The position numbers were made by a program, and so were the translations under genes. DNA of 64,000 nt from Balanoglossus misakiensis (lineage: Eukaryota > Animalia > Hemichordata). The notes below the pieces were generated by a model. The model was given only the letters and a program-made list of their open reading frames with translations, made no database searches and had not been told where the DNA came from. Each line of letters begins with the position of its first letter. The first letter of the stretch is position 1. Below, piece after piece: positions 664-41,804 of the stretch. Where the stretch lies: NCBI GenBank assembly GCA_040954595.2, contig CM082590.2, forward strand, positions 8,370,001 to 8,434,000. Reading direction: 5' to 3'.

Positions 664-2901
664 AGTGTTCAGCTGGTTGGTACGGCAGTGAATGTCGTCA
701 GAAGTGCGACTGCTACAATGGGGCAAAGTGTAATGGCGTCACAGGTGTGTGCGCGTGCACGGAGTTCTGGGAGGGCCCACAGTGCACCAGGTGCAGGGTG
801 GTGCCCCACATGGCCTACTGTCGCGTCACGTGCCTGAACTGCTACAACGCTGACATCTGCGAGCCCCCCAGGGGCGACTGCCAGTGCTCCGTCGGTTGGC
901 ATGGCGACTACTGCGACCAGCCTTGCCAGGGCGCCTCCTACGGCAACGACTGCGGGAACTGGTGCAACCCTGGTTGGCAGGGACCGAATTGCTCTGAACC
1001 CTGCCCGAGTGGTTACTATGGAAACGGATGCGTCCAGTGCCCCGCATGCGTCCACGGTGTCTGCGATCAGGTATCTGGATGTCTGTGTGACCCTGGATAC
1101 ATCGGTGAAACGTAGGTCAACTTAGACATGACGATACACTTTTTAAACCCTCTTTAAAGGGACAAAGTCTCTCTCTCGCTGCCCTTTTTCCATTAATTAT
1201 GTTTGATACAAGACACCGTTTATGTTATTCTACATGTGGATATATAGTGAATCAACGTTCAATCAAGAACGTTAATTTTGGGAACCTACCCTTGCTTCGA
1301 AAGAGATCCTTAATTATATATTATTTGAAATGTAGGTTTCCGTCTAAGGGTGAAAACTTATACAGTTTTATCAAATCATTCAAAAAGTGCCGAGTCATCG
1401 CTTTTCCACTCAAGGTTCCTATTAAGAAAGGTTTGAAATACAGGTACGTGCGTGTAACTAGGGGCAACAGAAGCCCGGATGTGACATGCTGTAGACAACC
1501 TACTCTGCACCATCTGCCTACAACCCCCCCTCCCCAATCAAATGGTTCTCTCCTATGATAATGGCGTCTGTCTTTCCAGGTGTGAGAAGATGTGCCCGGA
1601 ATACTCTTACGGGGGAAACTGCTTGTATCAGTGCGCGTGCGTCAATGATGGAGAATGTGACCCTGTCTCGGGCAACTGTACCTGCAAAGAGTCCTATTCA
1701 GGAACGTACTGCCAGTTTCTTTCAGGTATGAATAAATTATCCTGGTATCGGAATTCTGCCTACGTCATACAGTGTGCGTGCGTGCGCAAGAGATTCTTGT
1801 TCTTATATACATCATATAGATTTTTCTATTCATCACGAAGGCTGACTTTTCAGAATTCTGATCGTGAATATAGCCTTCATACGTGAAACAACTAATCTTG
1901 TTGTCGGTAAACGATTTTTAGTCCGGACTTGAATTTAATTCTCAACAATAACAATGCCAATGAACACAGATAGGCTATGTTGCTAAGCAACCTCCAAGGT
2001 TTACATCATAGTTCAGGTATTCTGTGCACAGTTAACTTAACCTCCATCACATAATAATTACTGGGCCTTGACCAAACCTTGTTATTATTTTTACAGAATC
2101 ATCATTATTCGAAAAGGAGGTACGGTCGCTTCACGTACTCATGTACGTGCTGGTCGGAGTACTCAACGTGGTGCTGGTTGTGAGTCTAATTCTGTACAGA
2201 CAGGAGGTCAAACTTCGCCTGTCAAGGTATGATGAGCGAACTGTACCAGCGCATCAAAGATTTCCACCAAGTTCGGTCCAAAGCCATTGTTTTTCTTTGG
2301 CAAAGTTTGACCTCTATAGTGAGACATGAAATTGCTCCAAAACAAATTATCTTTAGGTTTGTCGTCTTGTATTTCTGCTATAGCAAGTACAGATGCGCAT
2401 AACATTTTTCTGCCTTCTTTCCTTCGATGCAGTCTCGTCAATAGATTCAAAAGAACGCCACTAGCGACAGAAGATGACCAAATGGAATTTGGTAAGAATT
2501 TAACGATTTTTGCCATGTCAGATTTTTTTATCCATTCTGGATCCATCGTAGTTTTTTTACCCAATGACATCACCAAAAGAGAAAAGTGAATTAATTTAAA
2601 TTAATGAAGAAAAAGTATTATACCTAAGAACAAAGTGAACATGCGCATATGATCAATACACATTCACAAAATGGCAAATGGACTTACTTAGACGTGACCT
2701 TTGAACTTTGTAGATGGAGTAGAAGTACGGACTCGAATGGTACCTACTGGACATGAAGAACTCCAAGTTCAAGTCCAAGAGTACCATGACGCGGACGACA
2801 ACACCGAAGAAACCGCTCTACAAGAGTACCACGATGATGACGTCGTGAACTTGAACGAGACTTCGACAACGCAATACGCAAGACTTAAAGAAGATGACTA
2901 G
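664..2901 (+). CDS. Multiple-EGF single-pass receptor 1 (SCARF/MEGF10/Draper-like), 3' part; 5' exons lie upstream of the window
   Basis: In-frame GT-AG exons 664-1111, 1580-1725, 2097-2226 (TM helix LMYVLVGVLNVVLVVSLILY), 2433-2491 and 2714-2901 (TAG). EGF/laminin-EGF repeats include CDCYNGAKCNGVTGVCAC and CACVNDGECDPVSGNCTC. The acidic tail ends TTQYARLKEDD. Confidence 0.85.
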
Positions 2902-4002: not shown

Positions 4003-7000
4003 TTATGACTTTATCACCATGACGTCACTGTAAGATTCTGCGGCAATTGGGTTAGATTTGTGGCTCGCCTCTCGCTTGAGATGATACTTCAGTTTGTCGT
4101 ATTCTGTACCGTTGGTCATCTTTTGGCCAACAACATTGTACCCCTCTTCGCTGGGCAATACTCTGGGCCTCTTCTTCTTTTTCTTCATCTTGTTGAAATC
4201 CAGGTCGTTGTACTCGGAGATCACGTCCTCCTGCTGCGACAGATCCGCGTAGGTGTTCGGTTTGCCGTCGTTCTCTGGTCGGTAGTTCTTCCCAGTTCTG
4301 TCCACCTCACTGTATGTTTGAGCAGAGCAGTTATGGTGGGCAGGGATCTCCTCATATCTGGCGGGGGTGCCACTCATTACTGGCACGGCAGGGACACGCC
4401 CGGTCGCAGGTGTCTCATCAGGCGATGGGTCTTTATATTTGTGATTGATGGGAGGATTTTTCCTGGACCTCTTCCCAGCTGGACGTTGCGGTTTACTGTA
4501 CACGTTCTCCTCTTTGGAAGAAACTGGGCTCACCATATGTCCTGCAACGTCATAGGTAACCCCTGCACTGGGCGTCCCTTCTCCTTCAACGTCACTTCCG
4601 CCAGAACTTCCGTCGATGAGACTGTTAGTCTCGTCCGCCATGTGTTCGTATTCGTGTCGGATGCCAGGACGCTGCTTGGGCGCAGGTTTGTTGACTGCAT
4701 CATCATGAACAGGCATGCTACCATCACCTGCAGACTGGGCTGTCACCTGACCATTTCGCTGCTCTTCCAACATGGCTGCCGTTTCTGCTCCATTGCTGCC
4801 TGACTCACAACGATCCTCTGCAATCTGGGACTTATCAACTTCGATGTAATTGTTCCCAACAGCAGCTTGACCTTGATCTTCGCCATAGAAGACAGACAGC
4901 TTACTGAAAATCATAAACATCTAAAGTTATTAAACCATATAAAAATAATGAAAGTGATATTTGAGAAACATGCTTTCTTGTCTACTTCCTCTAGCCCCTC
5001 CCCCGAAAAATCAAATAAGTCAACCCTTAACAAACGACACCCCCCACATATATCGAAATGGGTCATCCCTTATCTGTTAAGGAGATAAGCATATCATGGC
5101 ATTTCACTTACTGCGGTCTCTTCGTCTTCTTCAAACGACGTCTATATATAAACACAGCCACTAGGACAACAGACCCCACCACAAGAAGGGTCAGAACAAC
5201 TGATACAGCAGGGAGGGGGTTGCTGCTCTTTGCTCCTGGAAGTACAGAAAACATGAGTGATTATACTCGGTCTATCCAAATAGACAATTGCTGACTGTTA
5301 ATCGTCACATTCACGTTGACACTGAGTCAGAAAACTAGTAACACTAATTATATTGGCATACAGAATATAATAAATGATGAAAAATGTCAATCATACCCGT
5401 ATTTTTGTGTGCTTCATTCGCACAGATCATTGAACAGTTGCCATGACTACTATTTCGACAACTACAAATCTCCTCACAGCTGTTAATATAGAAAAAAAAA
5501 AGAGAAAAATCATCATCAACTTCAAATGTGGATAAAAATGATTTGCTAACAATTCCACAATAAATATTTTATCCGTTATGATTTACCTTTCCATACATTG
5601 GCACGTTCCATGTTCATCAACACAGCGCATTCCATTATCACACAGGGGACATGGCATTTCACAGTTCGGACCTGTCCACCCCTCCTCACAAGTGTTGCAA
5701 CGTCCAGTGTCGTCTTGGCAGTCAATACACTTGTCAGAACACACCAAGTCGCATTTTGGTCCAGCGTAACCATGGGGACAAGCGCAGTCACCGGTCACGT
5801 GGTCGCAGGTTTGAGAAACTTCGCACTGACAAACTTTTAAACAGTTGTCACCATAGTAACCATCCGGGCATGGCTGGTCACATCTGTTACCATGCCAACC
5901 AGGTGTACAGCGGCAGTTTTTGTCCTCAGGTGTACATTCTCGTCCGTTGAAACAGTGGATACATTTGCTATCACAATAAAGGTGGGATTTTCCATCAGTT
6001 GTCTGCACAACTTTATTAACATTGCACATTGTGCATGCTTTTCCTCGCCATGTTGACGGACACGTGCATAAATTTGGGTTGGATCTATCACATCGCCCGC
6101 CGTTGAAACAATCACACGTGCTTTGGCAATAGGTACCATAGTAACCAGGGTGACATGCACACGAACCATCAACAACATTACAGAATGAATTACTCGAGCA
6201 TGCGCACACGCCACTACAGTCGTCTGTGTTATAAGATCCTGGTGGACACAAACAGCCAAATATTTGGTCGCACGTCACACCATTCGGGCAAGAGCATCTA
6301 TTCTCACAGATGGTACCATAGTAGCCAGATTCACACGTACACGACTGGAACACTCCGTTGTCCGAATTACATGTTCCGTTGTTCTTACAAGGACATTCAA
6401 AGTCACAATTTTTCCCATAATGAGAATTTGGGCATCTACAAGTCCCGTCTACTTTATTACAGATCCCTCCATTCTGGCACAAACACTGGTATGAGCAATC
6501 TCTGCCATAGTTACCATAGGGACACTCTGTAAAAAAAAGACGTGGAATATGACGTCCGAAATGTAGGCGTTCTGGTATTTAAATTAGTTGGAGAAAATGT
6601 ATTAACAAAACACATTTAGAATGTTGCTTTGGTAATTGTGGGCCAGAGGCCGAGTGGGATAGCGTTACGGTAACGTTAAAGGTATACGGTCATTTCTAAT
6701 TTACATATTCATAATTATATATATGCGTGTTCGATTTCGCACTTTCCTTCGCTTGTTTCACAATCTCTGATTGGCTATAAAGAAACCCAATAACATCACT
6801 TACCAATGCAACGTTGAGTTTCAAGTTTATTGTTTGGCTGATAGAAACCGTCACAACATCTGTAAACCCTGTGAAATAAATACAAGCAACAAAGAAATTT
6901 GCAATCTGTTATGTGCATTTCTGGCGCAATACACAACTACTGAAACTGACATACACACAGTACGCGTACCACTTTATCTTAAACCAAAATTGCAATGCTA

Positions 7001-7178
7001 CTAGTACTACAACGAAACAGTTTGACATACAAGGGGATACTAACCTTTCTTGTCGGTAATTCAGGTGGGAAAAACACGAATGTGGGTCATTTGGACCGAC
7101 ATAACCAACCACAGAATCAAACACTCCACAGACGACGACAAAAGCGAACACCACACGGAAGACGTTTACAGTAATCAT
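4003..7178 (-). CDS. Multiple-EGF receptor A with long tyrosine-rich cytoplasmic tail (~748 aa)
   Basis: Exons 7045-7178 (signal peptide plus GPNDPHSC), 6804-6868 (VYRCCDGFY), 5587-6526 (EGF array), 5397-5479, 5112-5235 (TM VSVVLTLLVVGSVVLVAVFIY followed by RRR) and 4003-4903 (tail). Total 2247 nt, frame intact. Confidence 0.9.
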
Positions 7179-8370
7179 GGTGTAAAGTTCGCGAGTACAA
7201 AAGTCACAAACAACGCGTATGTATGACTGTTCGAAGTCCACTTCTCAGAGCGCAAAATGACCGAAAATTTATCAAAAGTTCCTAATAGAGCCGTGGGTGG
7301 TTTTTTCTCTCGACCAGGCTGCCAGATCGTGGCCTCGCTTGATTGGAGCGTCTGACGTCAGTTTTGGTTTCGTTGACCAAAGTTCGATTGGTGCGCCGAG
7401 GTTTCCAATGGTTAATGCTTCAATAGTCAAACACTGTAGAGCTTAAGTCAACACTTAAAGGCTGTTGGTATCCCAATCCACAACTTAACATTATGTACAT
7501 GTAGGACCAATGGCGATTAAGTACGGTCGCGAAACAATATATCTTCGGTGGTTAAGACGTTAGTCCTAGACAACACTTCGTTTTACAAAGAGCCTGTATA
7601 AAGACAACGTCGAGTCAAATTCCGGTCAAAGTTTCTTTTCTACGAAATCTGTATTTCCGCGATTACCCTGTGTGGCTCGTTCAGTGGTGTTATGCCGCAT
7701 GAAGGCGCACTTCATGATGTAGGGGTTTTTTTATGCACGTGGTTTCACCCCTATTATGTTTCCGCCGCTGGCTGTGCTGTGCTACGAGAAAGAGGTCAAA
7801 AATTTGACTGAAGAATTGAAGACATCGCCTGTAAATCACATTACCTTGGATGTTTCCAAGATTCGCGGGCCAGATGATTTCAGGCAGTCTACCTACTTAC
7901 AAAATAACCTATAGGCCTAACCAGAGTGCGAGATTGAACGTTTCGTGCACCTGTTGATTTGTTTACTCAAACTTTTAAGAACAATCAGAGTTGAATTTTT
8001 TTTTATGTCATATTACAATCTCAAAATGAATAATGATCACATTCCCAACTTCCAACCAAACTTTATTGTAAGGAACGATTTTACATGCATCTGTTTACTA
8101 AATATAAAGTGATTCAAGAATTGCCGCTGGAGAATCCTATCTGCAATTAATCCCTATCAGAGGGGCAATTCATCAACTATGATGAATAATCTGAACATGT
8201 TAATGTATGAATGTATCATAAAGGAACATAAACCAAACGCACAATCATGACAAATTGTAAGTGTGTGTTAAATTGTAATCCTGTAATAGGTCCATCTGTT
8301 GATTTCCAACATTCTACAATAAAACAACATTCTCTGGGATTCCTCAACTGTTCCAAATAGCGATTTGACC

Positions 8371-11300
8371 TCAACCTTCTCCATCGACGACTGGTAGCTT
8401 TCTGAAAGTGATGGACAATTAACAGTTAACAAAACATTTATTTCTATTATTTCAGTAGTATGGGTATTTAATTGAAAGACAATTTAACTTTTGCCGATTT
8501 TGATGATTTTTTTTAAAGTCAACAAAATAGCTATGTATCAATTATACAAAATACTTCAAGTAACTCATGAGAAAAAGTGTGACAGTCAGGTGATGGTTGA
8601 AAAATTGCTTTATTGTCTATTTCCTGCAGCCCTTCCCAAAAATAGGAAAATTGTCAACTCTTATGTATAGGCAAGCACATCACTGCCTTATATATGCACT
8701 TACTGTGGTTTGTGTTCCCTCTTATAGCGATGTTTATGTGTACACGGGCACAAGCTTATTGACAACTCAGCTAAAAGCACTGCAATAGAAACCAGAACCA
8801 CTGCGATAACAAAAAGGTGGTTTCCTTTCCTCGTTTCTGGTGAACAAAAGACATACATGTTATACATGGACAATCAAAATAAATCCATTGGACCCCCAGT
8901 ACAAAGAAATAAGTGACAGAAAATGAACTGAAAATATCCCTGCTTCATCTGTTATGCTAGTGAGTCTTTCATCAATTCTTGCCTCCAAATATAGCGAAAA
9001 GAAGTCGATTTGTGATTGTGTATTAGAATTATAATGTATTGCATATTCTTGAAAGTGTGACGATTTTTGAAATTCAGTCAAAGGTATGTGGACAATTAAT
9101 GAGTCAAATGTACCAGTTTCAGTGTGTGCTTCATTCGTACATGCCTTTGAACATATCCCATGGCTACCACTTTGACATCTACTGCAAACGTCCTTGCAAC
9201 TGTCGATAAAACAAGAGAAAGTGGTTCACAAGTTGCATAGAAATTCTTCACTAACAATTTCACGTACATGCATGCATGCATGCATGCATGCATACATACA
9301 TACTATACATACATATTATTCATACATACATGCATACATACATACATACATACATACATACTATACATACATATTATTCATACATACATACATACATACA
9401 TACATACATACATACATACATACATACATACATACAGACATACATAATACATACATACATACATACATACATACATACATACATGTACATACAGACATAC
9501 ATACATACATTCATACATACATACATACATACATACATACATACTATACATACATTCATACATACATACATACATACATACATACATACATACATACATA
9601 CATACATACATACATACATACATACATGCATACATACATACATACATACATACTATACATACATTCATACATACATACATACATACATACATACATACAT
9701 GCATACATACATACATACATACATGCATACATACCGGTACATACATACATACATACATACTATACATACATACATACATACATACATTCATACATACATA
9801 CATACATACATACATACATACATACATACATACATACATACATACAGACATACATAATACATACATACATACATACTTACATGTACATAAATACATACAT
9901 ACATACATACATACATACATACATACATACATACATACATACATACATACATACATACATACATACATACATCCGATATGATTTACCTTTCAACACATTG
10001 GCACGTTCCATTGTCATCAACACAGCGCATTCCATTATCACACAGTGGACATGGCACTTCACAGTTCGGACCTGTCCACCCCTCCTCACAAGTGTTACAA
10101 CGTCCAGTGTATTCTTGGCAGTCAATACACTTAGCAGAACACAAGCATATGGGTCCGGAGTAACCATGGGGACAAGCGCAGTCACCGGTCACGTGGTCGC
10201 AGGTTTGAGAAACTTCGCACTGACAAACTTTTAAACAGTTGTCACCATAGTAACCATCCGGGCATGGCTGGTCACATCTGTCACCATGCCAACCAGGTGT
10301 ACAACGGCAGTTTTTGTCCTCAGGTGTACATTCTCGTCCGTTGAAACAGTGAATACATTTGCTATCACAATAAAGGTGGGATCTTCCATCAGCAGTCAGT
10401 ACTTTTTTATCTACATTGCACTGCGTGCATGCTTTTCCTTGCCATGTGTACGGGCACGTGCATAATTTTGGGTCGGATCTATCACATAGCCCGCCGTTGA
10501 AACAGTCGCAAGTGTTTTGGCAATAGGTACCATAGTAACCAGGGCGACATGCGCACGAACCATCAACAATATTGCAGTCTGAATTACTTTGGCATTCGCA
10601 CACGCCACTACAGTCGTCTGTGTTATAAGTTCCTGGAGGACACAAGCATCCCAATCTTTGGTCGCAAGTCACACCAGTCGGGCAAGAGCATTTCTTCTCA
10701 CAGATATCTCCATAGTAACCGGGGACACAAGTACACGGCTGTAACACTCCGTTGTCCGAATTACATTTTCCGTTGTTCTTACACGGGCATTCGAAGTCAC
10801 AATTTTTCCCATAATGAGAATCGGGACATTTACAAGTCCCGTCTACTTTATTACAGATTCCTCCATTTTGGCACAAACACTCGTATGAACAATCTCTGCC
10901 ATAGTTACCATAGGGACACTCTGTAAATAAACAATGTGTGAGTGTGAAATATGAAATCCATAATGTACGTGTGGTATGGTATAGTTGGCGAAAATGTATG
11001 AACAAAACACATTTAGAATGTTGCTTTTTTGACTTGTGGGCCAGAAGGCGAGTGGCTTGCTCACTGTATGTGTACATAGCGTAACGTTAAAGGTATACGA
11101 TCATTTCTACATATGCAAATAATGCGCATATGCATGCGTGTTCGATTTCGCACTTTCTTTCGTTTGTTTCACAATCTGTGATTGGCTATAAAGAAACCCA
11201 ATAACATCACTTACCAATGCAACGTTGAGTTTCAAGTTTATTGTTTGGCTGATAGAAACCGTCACAACATCTGTAAACCCTGTGAAATAAATACAAGCAA

Positions 11301-13194
11301 TAAAGAAATTTGCAATCTGTAATGTGCATTTCTGGCGAAATACACGACTACGGAAACTGATACATACATACATACATACATACATACATACATACATACA
11401 TACATACATACATACATACATACATACATACATACATACATACATACATACATACATACATACATACATACATACATACATACATACATACATACAAACA
11501 TACATACATACATACATACATACATACATACATACATACATACATACATACATACATACATACATCCGATATGATTTACCTTTCAACACATTGGCACGTT
11601 CCATGTTCATCAACACAGCGCATTCCATTATCACACAGGGGACATGGCACTTCACAGTTCGGACCTGTCCACCCCTCCTCACAAGTGTTACAACGTCCAG
11701 TGTATTCTTGGCAGTCAATACACTTATCAGAACACACGCATTTGGGTCCGGAGTAACCATGGGGACAAGCGCAGTCACCGGTCACGTGGTCGCAGGTTTG
11801 AGAAACTTCGCACTGACAAACTTTTACACAGTTTTCACCATAGTAACCATCCGGGCATGGCTGGTCACATCTGTCACCATGCCAACCAGGTGTACAACGG
11901 CAGTTTTTGTCCTCAGGTGTACATTCTCGTCCGTTGAAACAGTGGATACATTTGCCATCACAGTAAGGGTGGGATTTTCCATCAGTAGTCAGCACTTTTT
12001 TATCTACATTGCACTGTGTGCATGCTTTTCCTTGCCATGTGTACGGGCACGTGCATAATTTTGGGTCGGATCTATCACATAGCCCGCCGTTGAAACAGTC
12101 GCAAGTGTTTTGGCAATAGGTACCATAGTAACCAGGGCGACATGCGCACGAACCATCAATAACATTACAGTCTGAATTACTCGAGCATGCGCACACGCCA
12201 CTACAGTCGTCTGTGTTATAAGATCCTGGAGGACACAAACAGCCCAGTCTTTGGTCGCAGGTCACACCCTTCGGGCAAGAGCATTTCCTCTCACAGATAT
12301 CACCATAGTAACCGGGGACACAAGTACACGGCTGTAACACTCCGTTGTCCGAATTACATTTTCCGTTGTTCTTACACGGGCATTCGAAGTCACAATTTTT
12401 CCCATAATGAGAATCGGGACATTTACAAGTCCCGTCTACTTTATTACAGATTCCTCCATTTTGGCACAAACACTCGTATGAACAATCTCTGCCATAGTTA
12501 CCATAGGGACACTCTGTAAATAAACAATGTGTGAGTGTGAAATATGAAATCCATAATGTACGTGTGGTATGGTATAGTTGGCGAAAATGTATGAACAAAA
12601 CACATTTAGAATGTTGCTTTTTTGACTTGTGGGCCAGAAGGCGAGTGGCTTGCTCACTGTATGTGTACATAGCGTAACGTTAAAGGTATACGATCATTTC
12701 TACATATGCAAATAATGCGCATATGCATGCGTGTTCGATTTCGCACTTTCTTTCGTTTGTTTCACAATCTGTGATTGGCTATAAAGAAACCCAATAACAT
12801 CACTTACCAATGCAACGTTGAGTTTCAAGTTTATTGTTTGGCTGATAGAAACCATCACAGCATCTGTACAACCTGTGAAATAAATACAAGCAATAAAGAA
12901 ATTTGCAATCTGTTATGTGCATTTCTGGCGCAATACACAACTACTGAAACTGACATACACACAGTATGCGCACCACTTTATCTCAAACCAAAATTGCAAT
13001 GCTACTAGTACTACAACGAAACAGTTTGACATACAAGGGGATACTAACCTTTCTTGTTGGTAATAGAGGTGGGACAAACAGGAATGTGGGTCTTCGGGAC
13101 TGACATAACCAACCACAGAATCAAACACTCCACAGACGACGACAAAAGCGAACACCACCGAGAAGGAAACACGGAAGACGTTTACAGTAATCAT
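8371..13194 (-). CDS. Multiple-EGF receptor B, paralog of A, with internally duplicated ectodomain and truncated tail (~797 aa)
   Basis: Exons 13049-13194, 12808-12872, 11580-12513, 11215-11279, 9987-10920, 9114-9199, 8704-8836 (TM LFVIAVVLVSIAVLLAELSISL) and 8371-8401 (TGA). Total 2394 nt with consistent phases. Whether both duplicated blocks are spliced into one mRNA is inferred. Confidence 0.75.
9265..9972. repeat. Long degenerate (TACA)n microsatellite in a receptor B intron
   Basis: Seen directly in the sequence. Confidence 0.95.
11360..11565. repeat. (TACA)n microsatellite at the junction of the receptor B internal duplication
   Basis: Seen directly in the sequence. Confidence 0.95.
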
Positions 13195-13989
13195 GATGTA
13201 AAGTTCGCGAGTACAAAAGTCACAAACAACGCGTATGTGTATGACTATCCGAAGTCCACTTCTCAAAGTACCGAAAATTTATCAAAAGTTCCTAATAGAG
13301 CCGTGGGTGTTTTTTTCTCTCGACCAGGCTGCCAGATTGTGGCCTCGCTTGAGATTGTGAGCGCCTGTCGTCAGTTTTTGTTTCGGTGAGCAAAGTCTGC
13401 TGCGCCGAGGTTTCCAATGGTTTATATGCTTCAATAGCCAAACATTGTAAAACTTAAGTCAACACTTGAAGGCTTTTGGTATCCAAATCCACAACATGTG
13501 TGGGACCAAGAGTGATTAAGTACGGCCGTATATCTTCGGTGGTTAAGACGTTTATAGTCCTAGACCACACTTCGTTTTACAGAGTGCCTGCATGAAGACA
13601 ACGTCGAGTCAAATTCCGGTCACAGGTTCTTTTCTACGAAATCTATATTTCCTGTGTGCTCGTTTTGTGCTGTTATGTACGTCGCATGAAGGCGCACTTC
13701 ATGACTGAGGCTTTTCAGAAAATTTGGCGCCATTTATGAGAACATGCGGGCAGGGGAAATATCTCTTGTTGTAAGCTGCCCTCTATTGGTCGGTCTGAGT
13801 GCTTCGAGCATTGATGGAATTTAGTATTACCGTGTGTGTCTCCCTGTCTCTCAAAATTTGTCTGTCTCTCTGTCTGTCTTACTGCGTGTCTCGCTCTGTC
13901 AGTCTGTCCCTCTTTCTGAACCAATATTGTCCGAAAATAAACTTAGTACAATCTATTTAAAACGTCCGCATATCGAAACGCTACTGGAA

Positions 13990-15037: not shown

Positions 15038-15256
15038 TTGAGTATTCAGAATATGTATCAGACAATTCTGTGCCCCCATTTCCAAATTTATCCTAATTAC
15101 TAGTTATGTCAATCATTCGTTTTAAAATAAAAAGACAGCAAAAATAGTAGCCAATGAAAAGAGTGCACGTTATAGTCACACCAATAGAAAAAAGTTTAAA
15201 TGTGGCTGTCGGAAGGGTGCAGACTACAGTCATTTTCTGCGAATCAAGAAGTCAAC

Positions 15257-17049
15257 ATGATGTGGTTATCTTTTGCTGCTTTGATAGCTGTGCTGGGCTT
15301 TGCAGAGTCCGGTAAGTACCACTATGTCATATTCATCTCTCTCCCTGGAGTGGAGGAGGAGGAAAGAGAAATATTTCTGCAGTTATGTTTGGTTAACGAT
15401 ATACATAGGACGTCAATATTACCCACATTCGACGAAACAAGACCCTCAGATGTATGGTCCAACCCTGCTTAGAAAGCCAAATTCGTCAACTTTGTTTCTC
15501 ATTTTTTGCTCAAGCCAACCTTTAATTGTTTTGCCTTTAGCTTTTACATTTTATGCAGATGGGTGAAATAGATTATCTCTGGAGTACATTTTTTTTTTCT
15601 ATTGCAGCGACGATGGAATGTTCCGTTCTTGTGGGATCGAACATAAGAGGCACCAATTTGCAGACAGTCAGTCCGGTGTCGTCCGCCACAGCCTGTTGCG
15701 CCCACTGCGAGGAGACAGCAAATTGCCTCACCTATACATGGCTCAGAGACACACAAAAATGCTACCTGAGAAGTGGTATCACGGATGTTCTCGATAATGC
15801 AAACGCAGTGGCTGGAGTTATGTCCTTCGGTAAGTACGCTTTAATTGTGTTACAGTCAAACCTGTGTTAGTGGCCACCTCTATATAGTGGCCACTTTGTT
15901 ACAGTCCCTGTGCCATTTACATGTACAGTCAAACCTGTGTTAGTGGCCACCTCTATATAGTGGCCACTTTGTTACAGTCTCTGTGCCATTTACATGTACA
16001 GTCAAACCTGTGTTAGTGGCCACCTCTATATAGTGGCCACTTTGTTACAGTCCCTGTGCAATTCACATGTACAGTCAAACCTGTGTTAGTGGCCACCTCT
16101 ATATAGTGGCCACTTTGTTACAGTCCCTGTGCAATTTACAGGCCACCTGTCAATAAAGGACAGCTAGTTTAAGAAATTCCCTTGATTGGCCACTATAGAC
16201 ATGTTAGACTGTATAATGTTCTATACATAATTCTAAACCGCCTAGACCATCTATTATTCCAGTAACGTTTCGATATGCAGACGTTTTTAATAGATTGTGC
16301 ACAGTTTATTTTTAGACAATATTGGTTCAATTATTGCAAAGTGAGACTTGCTGCATTTAGTATACAGATTAGATGGTGTTGATTTTGAATGTTGAATCAA
16401 TGTCTCTACCAGTACATGTATTTGGAGTACAGATTCGATCTACAACTCCCTATTGTCATGAATTTCATTTAATTGTTGTTTTTGATTAATTGTAACTTCT
16501 TTTATTGTTCTGATGCTCGTTTCTTAAGGCTTCTCCGTGTCCATGATTGCTTTGTAACGTGAATTCCTTAATTTTGTCCCCAGATGTAAACAGCGCGATG
16601 AAATGTTCCGGTCTCGTCGGCACTGACTTGCGAGCTTCCGAGGAAGTGGCTGAAATTGCGGTGTTAGACAGTGCAGATGAATGTTGCGCTGCCTGCTTTG
16701 CAGAACCAGCCTGTACCGTTTGGGTTTACAGTTTTGACGGAAATCGTTGCTATCTGAGAGCAGGTTTTGATACCATCGTGAAAACATCCTGGTCTGTTTC
16801 GGGAATAGTTTCTCGAAGTACGTAAGATATAATTGATATAGCTCATTTTGTTCATCTGACGATATCACAGGCGCCTAACAGTAAATGTTGCAGATGAAGA
16901 GGGAATATGTTCAAAGTTCAGTCAGGCATTGAGGAGCCATGTCAACAAGAAAGAACTGCTCCATTTCAGGTTTTGCACATAAGAGAAAATTATAAGATTT
17001 CCCATAGACAATGAATTTAATTGTTTCTCTTTTTTTTATTCTAGTCTAA
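15257..17049 (+). CDS. Secreted two-PAN/Apple-domain protein, copy 1 (~171 aa)
   Basis: Exons 15257-15311 (signal MMWLSFAALIAVLGFAES), 15608-15829, 16584-16817 and 17045-17049. Each large exon has the PAN pattern C...CCxxC...Cxx[W/Y]x[W/Y]...CYL. AATAAA lies near 17210. The last donor site is ambiguous (16818 vs 16822). Confidence 0.8.
15851..16213. mobile_element. TA-flanked MITE (Tc1/mariner-pogo-like ends) with its 73-bp left end tandemly amplified x4
   Basis: The unit TACAGTCAAACCTGTGTTAGTGGCCACCTCTATATAGTGGCCAC... starts at 15851, 15924, 15997 and 16070 and is closed by ...TTAGACTGTA. Related copies occur at 20556-20775, 28753-28830 and 38517-38674. Confidence 0.7.
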
Positions 17050-17723
17050 CTGTCTTGGAAATCCCCAGCAATGGACACGACACATAGCATGGCTACATGT
17101 ACGCACTTGGAATTCGTGGTCATGGTAGAACTATTCTTTGGTGATCTTTTGTTGATTTACTTGGCATGTACAACTTGGAGACACATCTCCATGTTTCTTT
17201 AGAAGTAGAAATAAAACCTACAATTAAGCATCAATGACTTGTTCTGTGTTGATTGGAGTTATAAATGTTAAATGTGGAGACAGATTGTCAGACAGCCCAA
17301 ACAAACGAACAACTGAGAGACAACGGCAAAACAAAGAAACATTCAAGTGTGTATGTGTGTGTGTGTGTGTGGCCGTTATTGTATATGTCAGCATGGGTGA
17401 CCATATACCTTTAATTTCATTAGAAATATATCACTGAACAAGCTGGAAGCTTAAAGAATTTGAAGCTCAAATATAAATCCATAGAATATGGGAAAAAATG
17501 GAATGGATGTTGCTAATTAATGCTAATTATTTTCCAACTATAAGCAACGCCCGGGTCAATCAGTAGTGTGTCGCGTAAGGCGATTGACTTGAACGACGTC
17601 AGAGTCAAGACCATGTGGTGACCTCGTTGCCGTGACATCGCATTTTGAGTTCTTACTGACATGCAGATCTAAAAAATGGAAGATAGTTGACTCTGTGGCC
17701 AGACCTGAGTGTGTGAGTCTATA

Positions 17724-17900
17724 TTGGACCTAATTCAACTGCCTGGGGAGCAGACAACAGCTCACATGTGCAGCCATAAGCACAGCAGAGATAAACACAC
17801 ACATTGCAATCTCTGTCCTACTAGGTACCCATTACTCCTGGGTGGGGAGAAGCAATGAGAAATAAAGTGCCTTAATTCCAAAGGACACAACACCTACGAT
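17724..17900 (-). mobile_element. SINE fragment, second copy
   Basis: Aligns by eye with 14055-14225 (TTGGACCTAATTCAACT...AAGGACACAACACCTACGATCAAGAG). Confidence 0.55.
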
Positions 17901-19346
17901 CAAGAGTCCCATGGCTCTAGCCAATGAGCTATGTCTTCATACAGATGGTTTAGATGGTGCAGAATTATGCGTATAGAACAGGAGTTTGATATGTTTTTTG
18001 TATTCCTATCAGTTAGCCCATGCAAATAAACTGTTCTAAGTTTGTAAGAATATCATTAAATTGCCAACAACTAGGGCTGTTACAATAATACTTATACAAA
18101 CACCGCACGAAGCAGGTAATATCTATTAATGTACATTGCTTGTTTTCGGAGAATTTGCCCCACTTCTAGCTATTTTAACATTCCCGGGTTTATTATAGTT
18201 TTGGAAGTAGACGCTATACCTGGACAAGTTTTCACTTAGGATGACCTGAGTTAAAACTTTCACCGTTTGGACAGTGATCCTTGTTTCGTCGATATTATAA
18301 TGCAGTGTTTTTTATCCAGAATGGCATCAACAGGGGGGATATGTCCTCCTTTGCCAGGAAATTTGAGAGGGATTCCACTCTAGCAAGGGGGACTGCAATA
18401 TTGATCTCCAACATGTGAATGACGTCATTTTTTAGGGGCACTGGTTCCCCCTTGACAAATTTAGATGAAACAATGATAACGCTTTTCATTTTACTTTCAA
18501 AATTTGTATATACGTTCTTATCACCTGCCAGCTTTAGTTTTACTGGCGTACGTACAATCATGAAAAGAGAACCAGTATCATTAATGTATAGCTCGAATAC
18601 TTGCCATTTTGATGACATTTCTTGGAAATTAGATCAGCCCATTTGCATGGGCTTACTGCTGTGAATACACAATCATATTATCAACATCTAATTGTGGCAC
18701 CTGTTTATTCAGCCGGCCATTGCAAGCTTACAGAAGTATTGCGGTATGCGCGTGCACATACATATCAGAATCTTCACAAAATTAATACAAAATTGTTTCG
18801 TCTCACACATCTTAGCGGATAAGGATAAGATTAAAGAAGTTTATGGATTTAACATATGCTAAAAGGGCTACGGGGGAGAATATGTGATGTACAAGCAAAT
18901 TAGGTGAATGTAAGAGTTAAAGATGTACATGGTTTGCATACATACTAACGATGTATACGTGCATGTTGTATTCAATGTTGAGTATAGGCAGGGAAGCAGG
19001 CCAGTGGCATGACATGGTATGACCCTTTCACCCCCAGTTCCCCCCTTAAGAGGTCCAACCTTACCATAGAAAACAATGGGTTTGGACTAAACTATGGTGG
19101 TGAAACATCTTCAACATGTTTCTTTATTGACTTGCAATGCTGCTAGTATGCATAGTGTTGATTGCCCAAGTTTGATACATATGCAAAGACATATGCATTT
19201 GATCCAAACTTACTGATTTGATATTTAATAACTGTTTGCAATTAGATATAAAAATCAAGATTTGGACATCTAATATGATGAAGTCAGCAAGAGAAATTGA
19301 TCGGAGTGAGAATGTGATGTCAACTAATTTAGTTTGTTCGAACTTA

Positions 19347-19512
19347 GTGTATGTATGTATGTATGTATGTATGTATGTATGTATGTATGTATGTATGTAT
19401 GTATGTATGTATGTATGTATTGATGTATATGTATGTATGTATGTATTGATGTACATGTATGTACATGTATGTATGTAATGTATGTATGTATGTATGTATG
19501 TATGTATGTATG

Positions 19513-19543
<31 letters not shown>

Positions 19544-19613
19544 CGTATGTATGTATGTATGTATGTATGTATGTATGTATGTATGTATGTATGTATGTAT
19601 GTATGTATGTATG

Positions 19614-19645
<32 letters not shown>
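19347..19645. repeat. (TATG)n(TATC)n compound microsatellite upstream of PAN copy 2
   Basis: Seen directly in the sequence. Confidence 0.95.
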
Positions 19646-19861
19646 AGTATTCAGAATATGTATCAGACAATTCTGTGCCCCCATTTCCAAATTTATCCTA
19701 ATTACAAGTTATGCCAATCATTCGATTTAAAATAAAAAGACAGCAAAAATAGTAGCCAATGAAAAGAGTGCACGTTATGGTCACACCAATCGAAAAAAGT
19801 TTAAATGTGGCCATCGGAAGGCCGCAGATAACAGTAATTTGCTGCGAATCAAGAAGTCAAC

Positions 19862-21572
19862 ATGATGTGGTTATCTTTTGCTGCTTTGATAGCTGTGCTG
19901 GGCTTTGCAGAGTCCGGTAAGTACCACTATGTCATATTCATCTCTCTCCCTGGAGTGGAGGAGGAGATTTTTTTTCCATTTTTGCCTAATTGGTTTCTTT
20001 GCATGTTGCTAAGTTGTTTTTGCCTTTAGATTTTACCTTTTATGCAGATGGATGAAATAGTTTATCTGTAGAGTACAGTACCGGTATACGATCATTTTTT
20101 TTTTCTATTTTGCAAAGCGACGATCGAATGTTCCGTTAGCTTTTACATTTTATGCAATGGGTGAAATAGATTATCTCTAGAGTACAGTATTTTTGTTTGT
20201 TTTTCTATTAGCGACGATCGAATGTTCCGTTAGTTTACTTTAGCTTTTACATTTTATGCAGATGGATGAAATAGTTTATCTGTACAGTATTTTTGTTTGT
20301 TTTTCTATTAGCGACGATCGAATGTTCCGTTCTTCTGGGAACGGACATAAAAGGCAACACCCTGCAGATGGTCGCAGACACGGCGTCCGCCACAGCCTGT
20401 TGCGCCCTCTGCGAGGCGAGAGCGGAGTGCATCACGTACACATGGAGCACCGAGTCGTCAATTTGCTACCTGCGAGACACCATCACAGATATTGTCGATC
20501 AGCCGATAGCAGTCGCTGGAGTAATGTCCTTCGGTAGGATACGATTTAATTGTGTTACAGTCCAACCTGTGTTAGTGGCCACCTCTATATAGTGGCCACT
20601 TTGTTACAGTCCCTGTGCCATTTACATGTACAGTCCAACCTGTGTTAGTGGCCACCTCTATATAGTGGCCACTTTGTTACAGTCTCTGTGCCATTTACAT
20701 GTACAGTCAAACCTGTGTTAGAGGCCACCCCTATATAGTGGCCACTTTGTAACAGTCCCTGTGCCATTTACATGTCTATAAAAACATGGTATTTATATTT
20801 GCAGTACAGATTCGGTGTCATAAATTGCATTTAATTGTATTTTTTGATGAATTGCGACTTGTTTTATTGTTCTAATGCTCGTTTCTCGATTAGGCTTCTC
20901 AGTGTTCATGATTGGTTTCAAACGTGAATTCATTATTTTTGTCCCCAGATGTAAACAGTGCGATGAAATGTAACGGTATCGTCGGCACTGACTTGCGATC
21001 ATCTGGTGAAGAAGGGGTTTGGTTAAGAGAGAACGCAGACGCCTGTTGCACCCTCTGCTATGAGACACCAGCCTGTCTTGTTTGGGTTTTTAGTTTTGAC
21101 GGAAATCGCTGCTATATGAGAGCAGGCTTTGATTCCATCGTGAAAACACCTTGGGCTGTTTCCGGAATAGTTTCTCGAAGTACGTAAGAGATAATTTATA
21201 TGGCTAGCTCATTTTGTCCATCTGAAGATATAACTGGCGTCTAACAGTAAATGTTGTTGATGAAGCAGAGGGAATATGTTCAAAGTTTAGTCCGGCATTG
21301 AGCGAAGTCAACAAGAAAGAACTGCTCATTTATTTTGGGTTTTGCACAAAAGGGAAAATTATTAGATTTCCCATCGACGATGTACTATAAAACGGGTTAT
21401 TTTCGCGACAGGAACTGTTCGCGATATCTAAAGAGGCAACTGTTAGGACGAATGATATTCATGTTTTCTTATTTCACTAACTGCATCATTATCTCTGAGA
21501 ACATTTTACACGACTTTATATAACCCGTTTTTACAGTATTTAATTGTTTCTCGTTTTTTTATTCCAGTCTAA
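19862..21572 (+). CDS. Secreted two-PAN/Apple-domain protein, copy 2 (~170 aa)
   Basis: Exons 19862-19916, 20312-20533, 20949-21179 and 21568-21572, with the same structure as copy 1. AATAAA lies near 21735. Confidence 0.8.
20556..20775. repeat. 73-bp MITE-derived tandem repeat x3 in intron 2 of PAN copy 2
   Basis: Same unit as 15851-16140, at the equivalent intron position. Confidence 0.75.
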
Positions 21573-22298: not shown

Positions 22299-25200
22299 AG
22301 TGATAGTGATAGTGATAGTGATAGTAATGATGATAAATGATGGTGGTGGTGGTTGTGGTAGAGATGGTGATAATGACAGCTTCACCTATGACATAATTTA
22401 CAATATCACTAACCGCATGCAGTTAAACTCATATTTTAATACCATCTGCTTTTAATTCACTTTCATCCAATTCTCGATTCGCGTACACATAGTCAGCTCT
22501 TCTGAGAAGAAAACATACAATTTTTATTTCCATTTTTATTTCCAGCAAAAACTACAGCACAAAGAGTACTCATCATATCACCACTTGGCCTAAATACATA
22601 TAACATGGAGACATTCTTGTTGGAAATTGAATTTTAGTCCAGACTAAAATTTAAATGTCGACAATAACACTATACTTTGAATGTATAACTTATTTGTTAA
22701 CAAGGTGAATACTTAAGGATGTACGCGCAGAACATAAACCGGAAGCAGTGCGCGCCCGGTCTTTTTCCCATAGGATTACATTGAAAATTGCTAGAAAACA
22801 AACTTCTACTATTGTCATTTTCACGAAATTTTACACATAGCTCAGTCCAGCAAATATAAATTCATTGGTCAAATAAAATATAGGGGTCACCGCGCTCTAT
22901 TTTGAGATAAATTGCGTCAAAAATTTTGCCCATAGACAAACCATTGGTGAAAAATGCTGAGTCAGCAGTTTTCTTCTATTATCGACTAAATTCATGGCTC
23001 TGTATTTCAAAAACAAGCGCGGTGACCCATATATTTTATTACGGATTTTCATTATACATACAAAGGAGAATCCAAAAATCCACAATTAAAAAAAATGACA
23101 ATACTTTCAATTTTACTGAACGTACATCCTTAATTGGCATTTAGCAAGTATCAAAAGAAACTAGTTGTTCCATAGGCCAAAATAGTGAAATAAGACCAAC
23201 CTGTGTTTTGTCCGTCTAGATCTGACCATGCATGCGATGACGGCAACCAACACAATGACAGCCACGAACACGCCCACAGCGACTGCGACAACGATTACAC
23301 TATTCTGTGCGCCGGAAACTGCGTCTGCCTGTGGGGCAACTGAATGAGACAAGAGAATTAACACTGGATGTGATACAGAAAGTAAATACACGGATTCTAT
23401 CAGTCAACAGCTAAGTTTTGGGTAGGATAGAATTTTGGGTAGGTTCGCCTGAACTGTGTATCTGCTTCTTTGCTGTTTCCACAAACACACAATCAGCATT
23501 GCACTCGCAGTTCAAGTTGTTGTTTCCATGATTTTTTTAAACAAAAAACAATATACTTGGAACTTTGTTGAAATAAAGAAGTGAACTTCACAAGCTAAAT
23601 GTACCTTAATTGCAACGTGCATGTTTTGTGTGATTTGTCATAGATTAAGTACTTTCTATTTCTATAATTACCTTGTGATGTATTGGCAACACAATCTATT
23701 CCAGTACATCCTTCCATGCAATGGCAACTATCGGTACTTTCGTCGTAGACACACTTCCCTGTGCATCTAGTTTGTGATATTTGATTGAGAAAGAAAGTTG
23801 ATGATTGTCAATTCAGTATACATGTATTATTATTTGTCCAGCACGACACCAAGTGAAAGTAATTTGAGTTTCATGTTTGCTAAGTTGTCTGTCTGTCTGT
23901 CTGTCTGTTTGTCTATAGTGTACACAGTTAGTCATTGTAAAATAGTTCTTTAAAGGGACAAAGTCTCTTTCTTGCTGCCCTTTTTCCATTAGTTATATTT
24001 GATACGAGACACCGTTTATGGCGAGATTTTTACTCTCATATCCTATGGGATGGAAGTTGTGTGTGGTCGAACATTGATTCACTATATATCTACATGTAGA
24101 ATAAGATAAATGGGGTCTTCTATCAAAGATAATTAATGGAAAAAGGGCAGCGAGAGATACTTTATCCCTTTAAAGATATTCATTTTATACTTACTTGTCA
24201 GGACACTGGCAACTCGCATCGCTTTGACAAGATACACCATCTGGACAGGAGCACTTTCCTGTCACGTGATCGCATACTTCTAATTTCTCACAAAGGCAGA
24301 CATCGCTACAGCGGTCGCCATAGTAACCTTTCCCGCAGGGTTCGTCGCACCGGTCGCCTTTCCATCCGGGCGTGCACGCACAGGTTCTGTCCCGGGACAA
24401 ACAGGTGTATCCGTTGTAGCAGTGAAGGCATTTCTCCCGGCAGTAGTTCAAATCGATCCCGAAGAGCGTCTTCAAGTCGAATTTCACGTCGCACGTCGTG
24501 CAGTCGGCGCCCAGCCAACCGTCTTCGCACGCGCAGTCGTCGGGGTCGTCGTCCGCGCCGCAGCGACCGCGGTTGTAGCAGTCGCAGCGGTCCGTGCAGT
24601 CGTCGCCGTGGAAACCCGGGTCGCAGATGCACGCGCCGTCGCTCCGCCGGCAGGAGGCATCGTCCGGGCAATCGCAGACCCCCGTGCAATCTTCCCCGTA
24701 GAAACCAGGTTCACACGTGCAACCTTTGTACTGATCGCAGACGGCGTTTCCATGGCACGCGCAATCATTCTCGCAGAAGCGTCCGTGGTAACCATCCAGA
24801 CACGTGCAGCTAGAGCGAACCAAAGCCCCATCCCAGTCACAGAATCCACCATTTTCACAAGGGCACTCGACAGAACATGTTCTATCGAAATATCCACTCG
24901 GACAATCACATGACCCATCGGTTTTGTTGCACCTTCCCCCGTTCTCGCATAAACAGTCATACAGGCAGTCGTTTCCATAGAAACCGTCCGGACATTCTGA
25001 CCATTAAGAAATACATACAAAATTAGCATCAAAGGCACTGTACTTCAATTTGGTAATATATTACATTGTTATCAATTGTATGAGCCTCCCTTTATACCGG
25101 ATGTTGGCATTTTAATATGTTAATGAGCTTCCTTTTATACCGGATGTGGGCATTTTAATATGTTAATGAGCCTCCCTTTATACTGGATGTGTGCATTTTA

Positions 25201-28337: not shown

Positions 28338-33127
<4,790 letters not shown>

Positions 33128-40608: not shown

Positions 40609-40653
<45 letters not shown>

Positions 40654-40661
40654 CTATCATT

Positions 40662-40702
<41 letters not shown>

Positions 40703-40708
40703 TTTCAC

Positions 40709-40762
<54 letters not shown>

Positions 40763-40813
40763 TCTCATCATCATTTTCACCATCATCATCCTCATTCTCA
40801 TCATCATTTTCAC

Positions 40814-40891
<78 letters not shown>

Positions 40892-41804
40892 TACCACCAA
40901 TATCATCATCATTATTATTATTCGTTGCAATATCATACAAAGCTACTTTAATAGGAGGCAAGTTTTAACAATATTTATTTGAAGCATTCAATAATGTCAT
41001 GTGCACTTTCAAAAAATTGGAGAAGTCACCTACTTCTAATTTGATGATTTTGCAAGCTATTTGTTTGACTTCAAGTTCAAAGCCCATGCTTGCAGACTTA
41101 TCCCACCTGAGGAAAATTAATATTCCAAACATATTTTATTCCTCGCCGTGTATATTTCAGGAAGCTGTGGATACTGAATGGAAATTCAAACGAGCAGAAA
41201 TATGGATGAGTTATTTCGGAGCTCCAACACTGGCGCCACCGTTAAACCTGTTGTCGTTTATACCGTTTCTAATCCAGCTCTGCACATCGGAATGCAAACT
41301 GCATCAGAGGGAACCTCCAGCGTCTGGTCAGGTATGGATCTCCAGTGTTTCATCTAGACGGGGGATTTTCACCCCCATTGGCATGTTAGAACCCCCTAGC
41401 AATTTGTCAAGGGGGAACCAGTCCCCCTTAAAATGATGTCACTCACATGTTAGACCCTTGATAGAGTGGAATTCCCCTCAAATATTCTGGCATCTCTATT
41501 AGTACTAGACCTTAGTTGCACTTTATTTTGATAAGAACCTCATTGTATGGTGCGATGCATACGTTGGAATTTTCTCTTGAGTTGAAAGAATCTATTTGAA
41601 ACATTTTATGGCTTACTGCGATTTGTGTCACTATGAATATTTCTTTTGTAGGTGGTGAAGATTCTGAGCAATCGTTTCCTGGAGGTCATTGATCCGAGTC
41701 TGAGGAAATATAGCGATGATGCTTTGAATAATGGCGAGCAAAATGGGGATGAGTCAAACGGAAAAGACAATTTTGCGTTGGATATCGAAGAACCATGGAT
41801 TTGA
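36597..41804 (+). CDS. TRPC: Divergent, compact TRPC-like (canonical transient receptor potential) cation channel, ~644 aa
   Basis: Exons 36597-36713, 37091-37241, 37694-37863, 38235-38435, 38760-39490, 40260-40500, 41161-41331 and 41652-41804 (1935 nt, in frame). Features: ankyrin-like FFEAVERGD and TALHIAA, TRPC linker RALSSPAYI..SEDPI and KEFVAHHYCQKLL, 6 TM segments, S6 LVNLFIAIMSDTY and TRP box EWKFKRAEIWMSYF..TLAPPLNLL. The symbol is family-level only. Confidence 0.85.
38040..38175. repeat. (GAT)n microsatellite in a TRP intron
   Basis: Seen directly in the sequence. Confidence 0.9.
40518..40915. repeat. (TCA)n microsatellite in TRP intron 6
   Basis: Seen directly; begins just after the donor at 40501. 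Confidence 0.95.

What the first reader, a model, noticed from the sequence alone, without database searches (positions are those of the whole stretch)
4003..13194. Candidate paired-receptor system: signalling EGF receptor A beside a tail-less, charged-TM twin B
Seen: A and B have closely similar promoters, signal exons and EGF ectodomains, then diverge at the membrane. A has a neutral TM and a ~300-aa tail with 15 Tyr. B has a Glu inside its TM segment (IAVLLAELSISL). B's tail exon is still homologous to A's (KLPVVDGEG vs KLSVFYGED) but has TGA where A has CAA, and a second TGA follows, so all of A's tail-exon Tyr motifs are lost. B's ectodomain exons are free of stops. Known: vertebrate paired immune receptors (KIR, LILR/PIR, SIRP, Siglec) pair a long Tyr-motif tail with a short-tail, charged-TM partner; acidic TM residues occur in CD300c/d and in adaptors such as DAP12. 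Inference: this is an independently evolved paired or decoy arrangement built on a SCARF/MEGF scaffold in an invertebrate.
Basis: partly seen in the sequence, partly recalled or inferred. Interest (0 to 1): 0.85.

Follow-up and report, generated by a model that had tools for sequence, protein, structure and literature searches.

The report
Acorn-worm scavenger receptor with mute twin
Two neighbouring receptor genes, likely from an acorn worm, share a nearly identical outer part, but one has lost its signalling tail and likely acts as a membrane-bound decoy or tether for the other; its charged membrane residue is likely a by-product of two frame-shifting mutations rather than a docking site for an activating partner as in vertebrate paired receptors.

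Summary
The anatomy is real. A (748 aa) and B (797 aa) are tandem SCARF1-like EGF receptors of an enteropneust family. They are 87-98% alike from promoter through exon 3 but only 62-72% alike from the stalk onward, a pattern of ectodomain-restricted homogenisation. B's Glu codon and stop are also in the sequencing-run contigs.

The charged-TM analogy is weak. The Glu begins a 9-codon stretch that aligns with A's TM only out of frame (no-frameshift controls reached this in 0-2% of runs). It lies at position 17 of about 22, and 0 of 17 other family TMs are charged. A's conserved tail core is ITAM-like, so A is more likely the activator, which inverts the vertebrate logic.

Best reading: B is a signalling-dead, longer-reach decoy or tether (0.55). 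No RNA run was available, so expression is untested. The scan noted Ig-type paired receptors elsewhere in this genome, not this locus.

The parts
7179..7717 (-). A upstream/promoter region shared with B
   Evidence: blastn block 5571-7717 vs 11564-13704, 87%; 500 nt upstream 91%
7045..7178 (-). A exon 1: signal peptide and start of a short EMI-like cap
   Evidence: cap spacing C-x13-CC
6804..6868 (-). A exon 2: CCxG[YF] motif
   Evidence: identical (65/65) to B's second exon-2 copy
5587..6526 (-). A exon 3: EGF-repeat ectodomain, 59 Cys
   Evidence: Pfam EGF_2, EGF_laminin
5397..5479 (-). A exon 4: Cys-rich stalk
5112..5235 (-). A exon 5: neutral TM and basic stop-transfer cluster
   Evidence: GES -48 for the best 21-residue window
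4003..4903 (-). A exon 6: 299-aa tail, 15 Tyr, 9 YxxPhi motifs, no NPxY
   Evidence: conserved with P. flava P0155 (E 2.5e-28) and Glandiceps P0157
4201..4251 (-). ITAM-like YxxL-x9-YxxL in A's tail; its second half also fits the ITIM pattern SxYxxL
   Evidence: both Tyr invariant in P0155 and P0157, spacer 8 there
4282..4314 (-). Conserved family tail motif Y-x-x-V-D-R-x-G-K-x-Y
   Evidence: a matching motif is also in P0011 and P0033
13195..13704 (-). B upstream/promoter region shared with A
13049..13194 (-). B exon 1 (12 nt longer than A's, in frame)
12808..12872 (-). B exon 2, copy 1
11580..12513 (-). B exon 3, copy 1 (B1), 59 Cys
11360..11565 (-). (TATG)n tract at the junction of the internal duplication
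   Evidence: sequence; junction alignment
11215..11279 (-). B exon 2, copy 2
9987..10920 (-). B exon 3, copy 2 (B2), 59 Cys; 96.6% identical to B1
   Evidence: B2-specific letters seen in run contigs
9255..9972 (-). About 700-nt (TATG)n tract in B intron 3, at the 3' edge of A/B similarity
9114..9199 (-). B exon 4: stalk, all 5 Cys kept, 72% identical to A
8704..8836 (-). B exon 5: TM and short basic tail; 62% identical to A
   Evidence: single-sequence AlphaFold2 helix over residues 3-28
8742..8768 (-). Likely frameshifted 9-codon stretch of B's TM, beginning with the Glu codon (8768-8766)
8371..8401 (-). B exon 6 coding part: 9 codons then TGA (8373-8371)
8300..8370 (-). Dead remnant of the tail exon (11-nt deletion, second TGA 8346-8344)
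8062..8067 (-). Candidate poly(A) signal behind B
   Evidence: weak, none found within 1 kb behind A

Best explanation
B likely encodes a membrane-anchored, signalling-dead twin of receptor A that would bind the same ligands and damp A's signal (decoy) or hold ligand for it (tether), while its TM glutamate is likely a by-product of two compensating frameshifts. Shown: B's open 797-codon frame, doubled ectodomain, short tail, and 5'-restricted similarity to A. Inferred history: an old tandem duplication (dS about 0.55-0.7 in exons 4-6); an indel in the TM exon or a stop cut off B's tail and the tail exon decayed; a second indel put the basic stop-transfer cluster back in frame and created the Glu; gene conversion or unequal exchange kept promoter, signal and EGF exons alike up to the microsatellite in B's intron 3; exons 2+3 were then duplicated. 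Inferred function: A is likely a Src/Syk-coupled scavenger or phagocytic receptor through its ITAM-like pair; the shared promoter would co-express B; B's doubled rod would reach ligand first. I lean to decoy over tether, but the sequence cannot separate them.
For: Identity to A: upstream 91%, exon 1 93%, intron 1 98%, exon 3 91-92%, then exon 4 72% and exon 5 62%; dS 0.165-0.21 in exon 3 against 0.56-0.70 downstream. A, B1 and B2 form one clade (100/100), B1+B2 98/97. Exon 3 dN/dS: A-B1 0.38 (p 2e-4), A-B2 0.34 (p 3e-6), B1-B2 0.44 (p 0.048), no Cys change. 32 neutral changes keep all Cys with no stop in 0.1% of simulations. Neutral decay of exons 4+5 and their splice sites keeps everything in 1.8% (d 0.15), 0.1% (d 0.25) and 0.01% (d 0.35) of runs without indels. 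The frameshifted alignment of exon 5 beats the in-frame one under 4 of 4 scoring schemes; the gain of 22 is reached by 0 of 250, 4 of 250, 0 of 300 and 7 of 300 no-frameshift controls. The shifted frame has 4 of 8 GTN (Val) codons, the present frame 0 of 9. 0 of 17 other family TMs are charged. The ITAM-like Tyr pair is invariant in three acorn-worm proteins. Megf10 and Draper signal through an ITAM and Syk/Shark (PMC8092387, passages).
Against: Expression is untested. The in-frame flanks of exon 5 show dN/dS about 1.1 and exon 4's 0.39 is not significant (p 0.10). A clean 16-residue hydrophobic stretch survives neutral drift in 15-50% of simulations, so the TM itself shows no clear selection. 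Conversion can carry purifying-selection signal into a dead gene (SIGLEC16P; PMC5701461, passages). The Glu is predicted inside a continuous helix and inside the best TM window, so it could have been put to use. A's tail also has one strict ITIM match and several YxxV/L motifs, so its sign is not settled. The frameshift rests on one pairwise comparison; no outgroup DNA was available.
Confidence: 0.55

Rival explanations
1. B is a decaying or silent paralog in a birth-and-death cluster; its intact 5' part is repeatedly refreshed from A or from other copies.
For: Dead tail exon, two frameshifting indels and dN/dS about 1.1 in the TM exon; B's exon-2 copy 2 is identical to A's, a sign of recent exchange; the family has many short or truncated models in P. 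flava.
Against: B1 and B2 group apart from A and still show dN/dS 0.44 with all Cys kept; exons 4-5 lie outside the homogenised tract yet keep splice sites, 5 Cys and an open frame; the second version in the runs has no coding lesion in 8200-9250 (expected by chance with p about 0.2 by my hand estimate, so weak).
Confidence: 0.2
2. B is a cis co-receptor: it supplies a long ligand-binding arm and pairs with A or another tailed family member that supplies the signal, perhaps through the polar TM residue.
For: Shared promoter; Asn in the inner half of 5 of 17 family TMs hints at TM packing; Botryllus tail-less fester genes lie beside Tyr-motif co-receptors (PMC12065747, passages); SIMU works with Draper (PMC8419693, passages).
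Against: A's TM has no complementary polar or basic residue; fester and FcoR have different ectodomains, whereas A and B are near-identical.
Confidence: 0.13
3. One reading: B is an activating partner whose TM Glu recruits an ITAM adaptor, opposing an inhibitory A, as CD300C opposes CD300A.
For: Short tail, Glu within the predicted helix; ectodomain-restricted homogenisation like that of CD300A/C, SIGLEC11/16 and KLRC; the Glu is in both versions seen.
Against: The Glu codon forms at a likely frameshift junction; depth 17 of about 22 versus 8 of 21 in CD300C; no charged TM in 17 relatives; A's conserved motif pair is ITAM-like; no invertebrate DAP12/FcR-gamma turned up (search; their restriction to vertebrates is recalled, not tested).
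Confidence: 0.1
4. B's doubled ectodomain is an assembly join of two haplotypes; the rest stands.
For: B1 and B2 are identical over intron 2 and the start of exon 3; 3.4% divergence is within the roughly 8% seen between two versions of A.
Against: The junction puts intron-1 sequence with private changes behind a microsatellite, which neither single-copy haplotype would have; B-type exon-3 contigs in X1 have depth 63-84 against 41 for B's 3' half and 44 for A (weak, depth is no copy number).
Confidence: 0.05

Closest known systems
SCARF1 (SREC-I), class F scavenger receptors
   Same: Signal peptide, short cap ending in CCxG, EGF repeats, TM, long tail without NPxY; best PDB match is SCARF1 8hna, E 9e-29.
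   Different: Only 32-35% identical; MEGF10/11 scores higher in blastp (130-148 versus 99-120 bits); the tail is Tyr-motif-rich and acorn-worm-specific; orthology not shown.
Megf10 / PEAR1 / Draper / CED-1 engulfment receptors
   Same: CCxG[YF] motif, EGF rod, ITAM-like tail; Draper has opposing ITAM and ITIM isoforms (PMC9008705 and bioRxiv 10.1101/2025.01.07.631694, passages).
   Different: Full-length EMI domain (about 57-60 residues between first Cys and CC) and NPxY are absent here; here the partner is a separate gene with no tail motif.
Vertebrate paired receptors CD300A/CD300C and SIGLEC11/SIGLEC16
   Same: Neighbouring genes; homogenised upstream region and ectodomain; divergent TM and tail; short-tailed member with a charged TM residue (Glu in CD300C); a microsatellite at one boundary of the similar region in SIGLEC11/16.
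   Different: EGF rather than Ig scaffold; the long tail is probably activating; the Glu is deeper and likely frameshift-born; no adaptor known.
Botryllus fester family / FcoR pairs
   Same: Invertebrate deuterostome; a gene with no known signalling motif beside a Tyr-motif receptor (PMC12065747, passages).
   Different: Ig/sushi scaffold, dissimilar partners proposed to form heterodimers, allorecognition shown by experiment.
Unnamed enteropneust family (P. flava XP_070546785, XP_070549965, XP_070549962, XP_070546701; Glandiceps LOC144450061/62; Saccoglossus LOC102804692)
   Same: 50-56% ectodomain identity for the nearest P. flava members, 41-43% for the others, with the same cap; clustered; tails from about 25 to 310 residues.
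   Different: None of the 14 database TMs examined is charged and all keep a YxxPhi motif; no doubled ectodomain was seen among the nearest relatives fetched.

Membership tests
Paired opposing receptors (vertebrate definition) | Clustered genes with very similar ectodomains | tested here: met
Paired opposing receptors (vertebrate definition) | Homogenisation restricted to the ligand-binding part | tested here: met
   dS 0.165-0.21 versus 0.56-0.70. Strict proof needs orthologues in a second species, which were not available, so unequal-crossover chimaerism is not excluded.
Paired opposing receptors (vertebrate definition) | Long-tailed member carries ITIMs and is inhibitory | tested here: inconclusive
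   1 strict ITIM match, which lies inside a conserved ITAM-like pair
Paired opposing receptors (vertebrate definition) | Short-tailed member has a charged TM residue | tested here: met
   Glu at position 17 of the best window; GES -38, the weakest of 18 TMs
Paired opposing receptors (vertebrate definition) | That residue is a conserved adaptor-docking site | tested here: inconclusive
   No B orthologue found; absent from 17 relatives; likely frameshift origin. The evidence leans against.
Paired opposing receptors (vertebrate definition) | ITAM adaptor (DAP12, FcR-gamma) present and bound | not testable with these tools
   No genome held
Paired opposing receptors (vertebrate definition) | Co-expression, shared ligand, opposite output | not testable with these tools
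   No RNA holder listed
SCARF/MEGF (class F scavenger receptor-like; Nimrod superfamily cap) | CCxG[YFW] motif N-terminal to EGF-like repeats | tested here: met
   motif as described in PMC4073527 (passages)
SCARF/MEGF (class F scavenger receptor-like; Nimrod superfamily cap) | Type I TM protein with tandem EGF repeats | tested here: met
Megf10/Draper/CED-1 orthologue group | Full EMI domain and NPxY in the tail | tested here: not met
   C-x13-CC cap and no NPxY
Pseudogene | Broken frame or neutral evolution throughout | tested here: not met
   Open frame; exon 3 dN/dS below 0.45; transcription untested

The most novel reading that the evidence does not exclude
An acorn worm has built a paired-receptor system on a scavenger-receptor EGF scaffold, and two compensating frameshifts invented both the short tail and a functional acidic TM residue de novo, which now docks an unknown invertebrate signalling adaptor.
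Probability: 0.1. Interest if true: 0.8.

Novelty: new variant of a known kind. Interest (0 to 1): 0.42.

Why it matters
Ectodomain-restricted homogenisation between a signalling and a non-signalling receptor is documented for vertebrate Ig and lectin receptors; my searches (open-access library only) found no description in a hemichordate or on this scaffold. The pair is a compact, testable case of a decoy evolving in step with its receptor, in an unnamed, fast-diversifying acorn-worm family with a conserved ITAM-like tail. It also shows a caution: a short tail plus charged TM can arise as a side effect of frameshifts, which is both a trap for annotation and a possible route by which such partners are born.

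Tried and rejected
No whole genome is held, so other paralogs and adaptors could not be sought. No RNA holder listed: no evidence either way on expression. The tail search gave 3 hits; P0156 is a low-complexity repeat and was dropped. Pfam finds nothing in A's tail, either TM exon or exon 1. Intron 4 similarity between A and B is not above shuffles (46 of 300), so its 69% global identity is not evidence; introns 3 and 5 are (3 and 0 of 300). Whether B's 3' half is orthologous to short-tailed P0160 could not be decided (alignment scores 18 for B, 22.5 for A). Left out of the TM count: P0122, P0123, P0125, P0128 (no TM in the model), P0155 (tail only), P0019, P0118, P0137 (other architectures), P0158 and P0159 (isoforms of P0157). 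My first last-exon models of C and D were wrong and were corrected. B exon 5 to A exon 6, B exon 3 to A exon 4 and TM-exon skipping (a secreted form with a 44-residue end) are all possible on paper and untested. Contig depth as copy number is only a hint. No complex prediction was run. The scan's index had nothing near this place, for this sequence or for the charged-TM wording, and no adaptor note. Supplements of papers were not opened.
Full report
Observation. Reading the minus strand and building exon models from splice sites and phases gives A as six exons (748 aa) and B as eight (797 aa), both without internal stops. The homology of B's tail exon is real for the first 60 nt (0 of 300 shuffles) and undetectable for the remainder, so the tail is mostly gone, not merely stopped. 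Contigs of two DNA runs of one sample cover B's 3' half in one piece and carry the same Glu, stop and splice sites. These runs may be the assembly's own sample, so this rules out an assembly error and shows a second version, but is not population evidence.

Self-comparison shows exons 2+3 twice in B. The unit is 999 nt and phase 2 to phase 2, so the ectodomain doubles in frame (133 Cys in B against 71 in A). The junction joins a (TATG)n tract to the tail of intron 1. Of 35 variant sites listed (238 more were not shown), 23 match both B copies, 6 match B2 only, 5 match B's single-copy 5' part and 1 matches neither. Depths in X1 hint at three B-type exon-3 copies per diploid genome, so the duplication may be heterozygous; this is weak.

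Identity of the family. Exon 3 hits EGF families. Among general hits at about 30-35% (Draper, MEGF10/11, PEAR1, SCARF1), acorn-worm proteins stand out at 39-57%. A tree of 17 ectodomains puts A, B1 and B2 together (100/100) inside a seven-row clade with four Ptychodera flava proteins (99/99). A's tail finds a P. flava tail-only model (E 2.5e-28) and a Glandiceps protein. The window is therefore likely from an enteropneust. The N-terminal cap is short (C-x12-14-CC in A and 9 of the 11 hemichordate proteins checked), like SCARF1 and unlike the roughly 57-60 of PEAR1 and Draper, and A has no NPxY; the best solved-structure match is SCARF1. Two more members lie in the window: C (tail about 87 aa, ending in a YxxL) and D (tail about 35 aa).

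Mosaic history. Identity is 87-98% from 540 nt upstream to just past exon 3, then 62-72%. dS is 0.13 (exon 1) and 0.165-0.21 (exon 3) against 0.70 (exon 4), 0.56 (exon 5 flanks) and 0.64 (first nine tail codons), the last three on few codons. The runs also hold a second version of A that differs at 35 of 435 tail positions (allele or paralog unknown), so A and B ectodomains are about as close as two versions of A. This is the pattern named merohomogenization for vertebrate opposing receptors (PMC3210942: abstract, outline and first part of the Discussion read) and reported for CD300A/C (PMC12447643, passages) and SIGLEC11/16 (PMC5701461, passages). Those papers prove conversion with orthologues; I had none, so a one-off chimaera is not excluded.

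Is B alive? Exon 3 shows dN/dS 0.34-0.44 in all three comparisons, with 59 of 59 Cys kept. For B1 versus B2, which excludes A's lineage, 18 residues differ against a neutral mean of 23.9 (p 0.015), and no Cys loss or stop has p 0.001. Exons 4-5, outside the homogenised tract, keep ten splice bases, five Cys and an open frame, which neutral decay allows in 1.8% or fewer of simulations for branch lengths 0.15-0.35 (run forward from B's present sequence, and the true length of any neutral period is unknown). Against this, the TM exon's flanks have dN/dS about 1.1, and nothing shows transcription.

The Glu. Hydropathy puts it at position 17 of a 21-23 residue window, and a single-sequence AlphaFold2 model of the exon has one helix over residues 3-28 with the Glu at 23, so it is probably in the membrane, near the inner face. 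But DNA alignment of the two TM exons places indels of +5, +6 and -2 in B; between the first and last, B's codons 23-31 match A's TM only in another frame. The score gain over the best in-frame alignment (22) was reached by 0 of 250 and 4 of 250 simulated in-frame pairs, 0 of 300 TM-codon replacements and 7 of 300 shuffles of B's own codons. The other frame reads VVNKLVPV, Val-rich and with an Asn like the VVNF and VINF of the nearest P. flava TMs, and it ends in a stop two codons later, so the -2 event alone would already have removed the tail. The Glu codon is formed at or just behind the first junction. No other family TM has a charged residue (0 of 17). The origin does not exclude later use, but nothing here shows selection for the residue.

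Sign of A. Seven tail Tyr are invariant across A, P0155 and P0157, among them a YxxL-x8/9-YxxL/I pair. Megf10 and Draper use an ITAM with Syk or Shark (PMC8092387, passages), and amphioxus has a working SYK (PMC13344425, passages). So A is more likely activating, although one strict ITIM match and SIRP-like YxxL/V motifs (resemblance recalled, not tested) leave a mixed output open. An activating A with a tail-less twin is a receptor-decoy or receptor-tether pair, not an inhibitory-activating pair. Negative and helper partners are known on this scaffold in flies: Draper-II, secreted NimB1 (bioRxiv 10.1101/2025.01.07.631694, start of abstract and one passage) and SIMU (PMC8419693, passages). Botryllus places motif-less fester genes beside Tyr-motif co-receptors (PMC12065747, passages).

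Verdict. Observation confirmed, interpretation partly supported. B is most likely a signalling-dead twin kept in step with A (0.55); decaying paralog 0.2; cis co-receptor 0.13; charged-TM activating partner 0.1. It works like a homogenised receptor pair but is not shown to be a member of the opposing paired receptors. Six searches found no paper on this family or on paired receptors in hemichordates. New variant of a known kind; interest 0.42.

Noticed in passing
window 664-2901 (+): Gene C, same broad EGF-receptor kind, convergent with A; 5' end not modelled; TM with an Asn, tail about 87 aa ending in a YxxL motif.
   Followed up: partly
window 22429-25380 (-): Gene D, same family (50% to B2), neutral TM, tail about 35 aa with one Tyr cluster; the middle of exon 3 is strongly GC-rich; exon 1 not located.
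   Followed up: partly
window 4478-4912 and 5097-5606: Run X1 holds a second version of A differing at 35 of 435 and 33 of about 510 positions, whereas B's 3' half differs at about 0.5%; possible balanced polymorphism of A or an unseen paralog.
   Followed up: no
window 9971-11372 vs 11564-12965: B's internal exon 2+3 duplication may be a segregating copy-number variant (contig depths).
   Followed up: partly
window 15200-21200 (+): Two tandem small genes, each with two PAN-domain exons, between B and D.
   Followed up: no
window 29043-30412 (+): Cytochrome P450 exons.
   Followed up: no
window 38760-41436 (+): Ion-transport (TRP-like by eye) channel exons (weak Pfam hit).
   Followed up: no
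window 42876-62551: Subtilase (S8) gene in at least three copies 91-97% alike, one inverted (about 54900-57650), plus a diverged fourth near 42900-45900.
   Followed up: no
P0155, P0157 (acorn-worm proteins): The tail motif Y-x-x-[VI]-D-R-x-G-[KR]-x-Y is repeated several times in P0155; Glandiceps P0157 carries this tail on a very short ectodomain, a possible ligand-blind signalling subunit.
   Followed up: no
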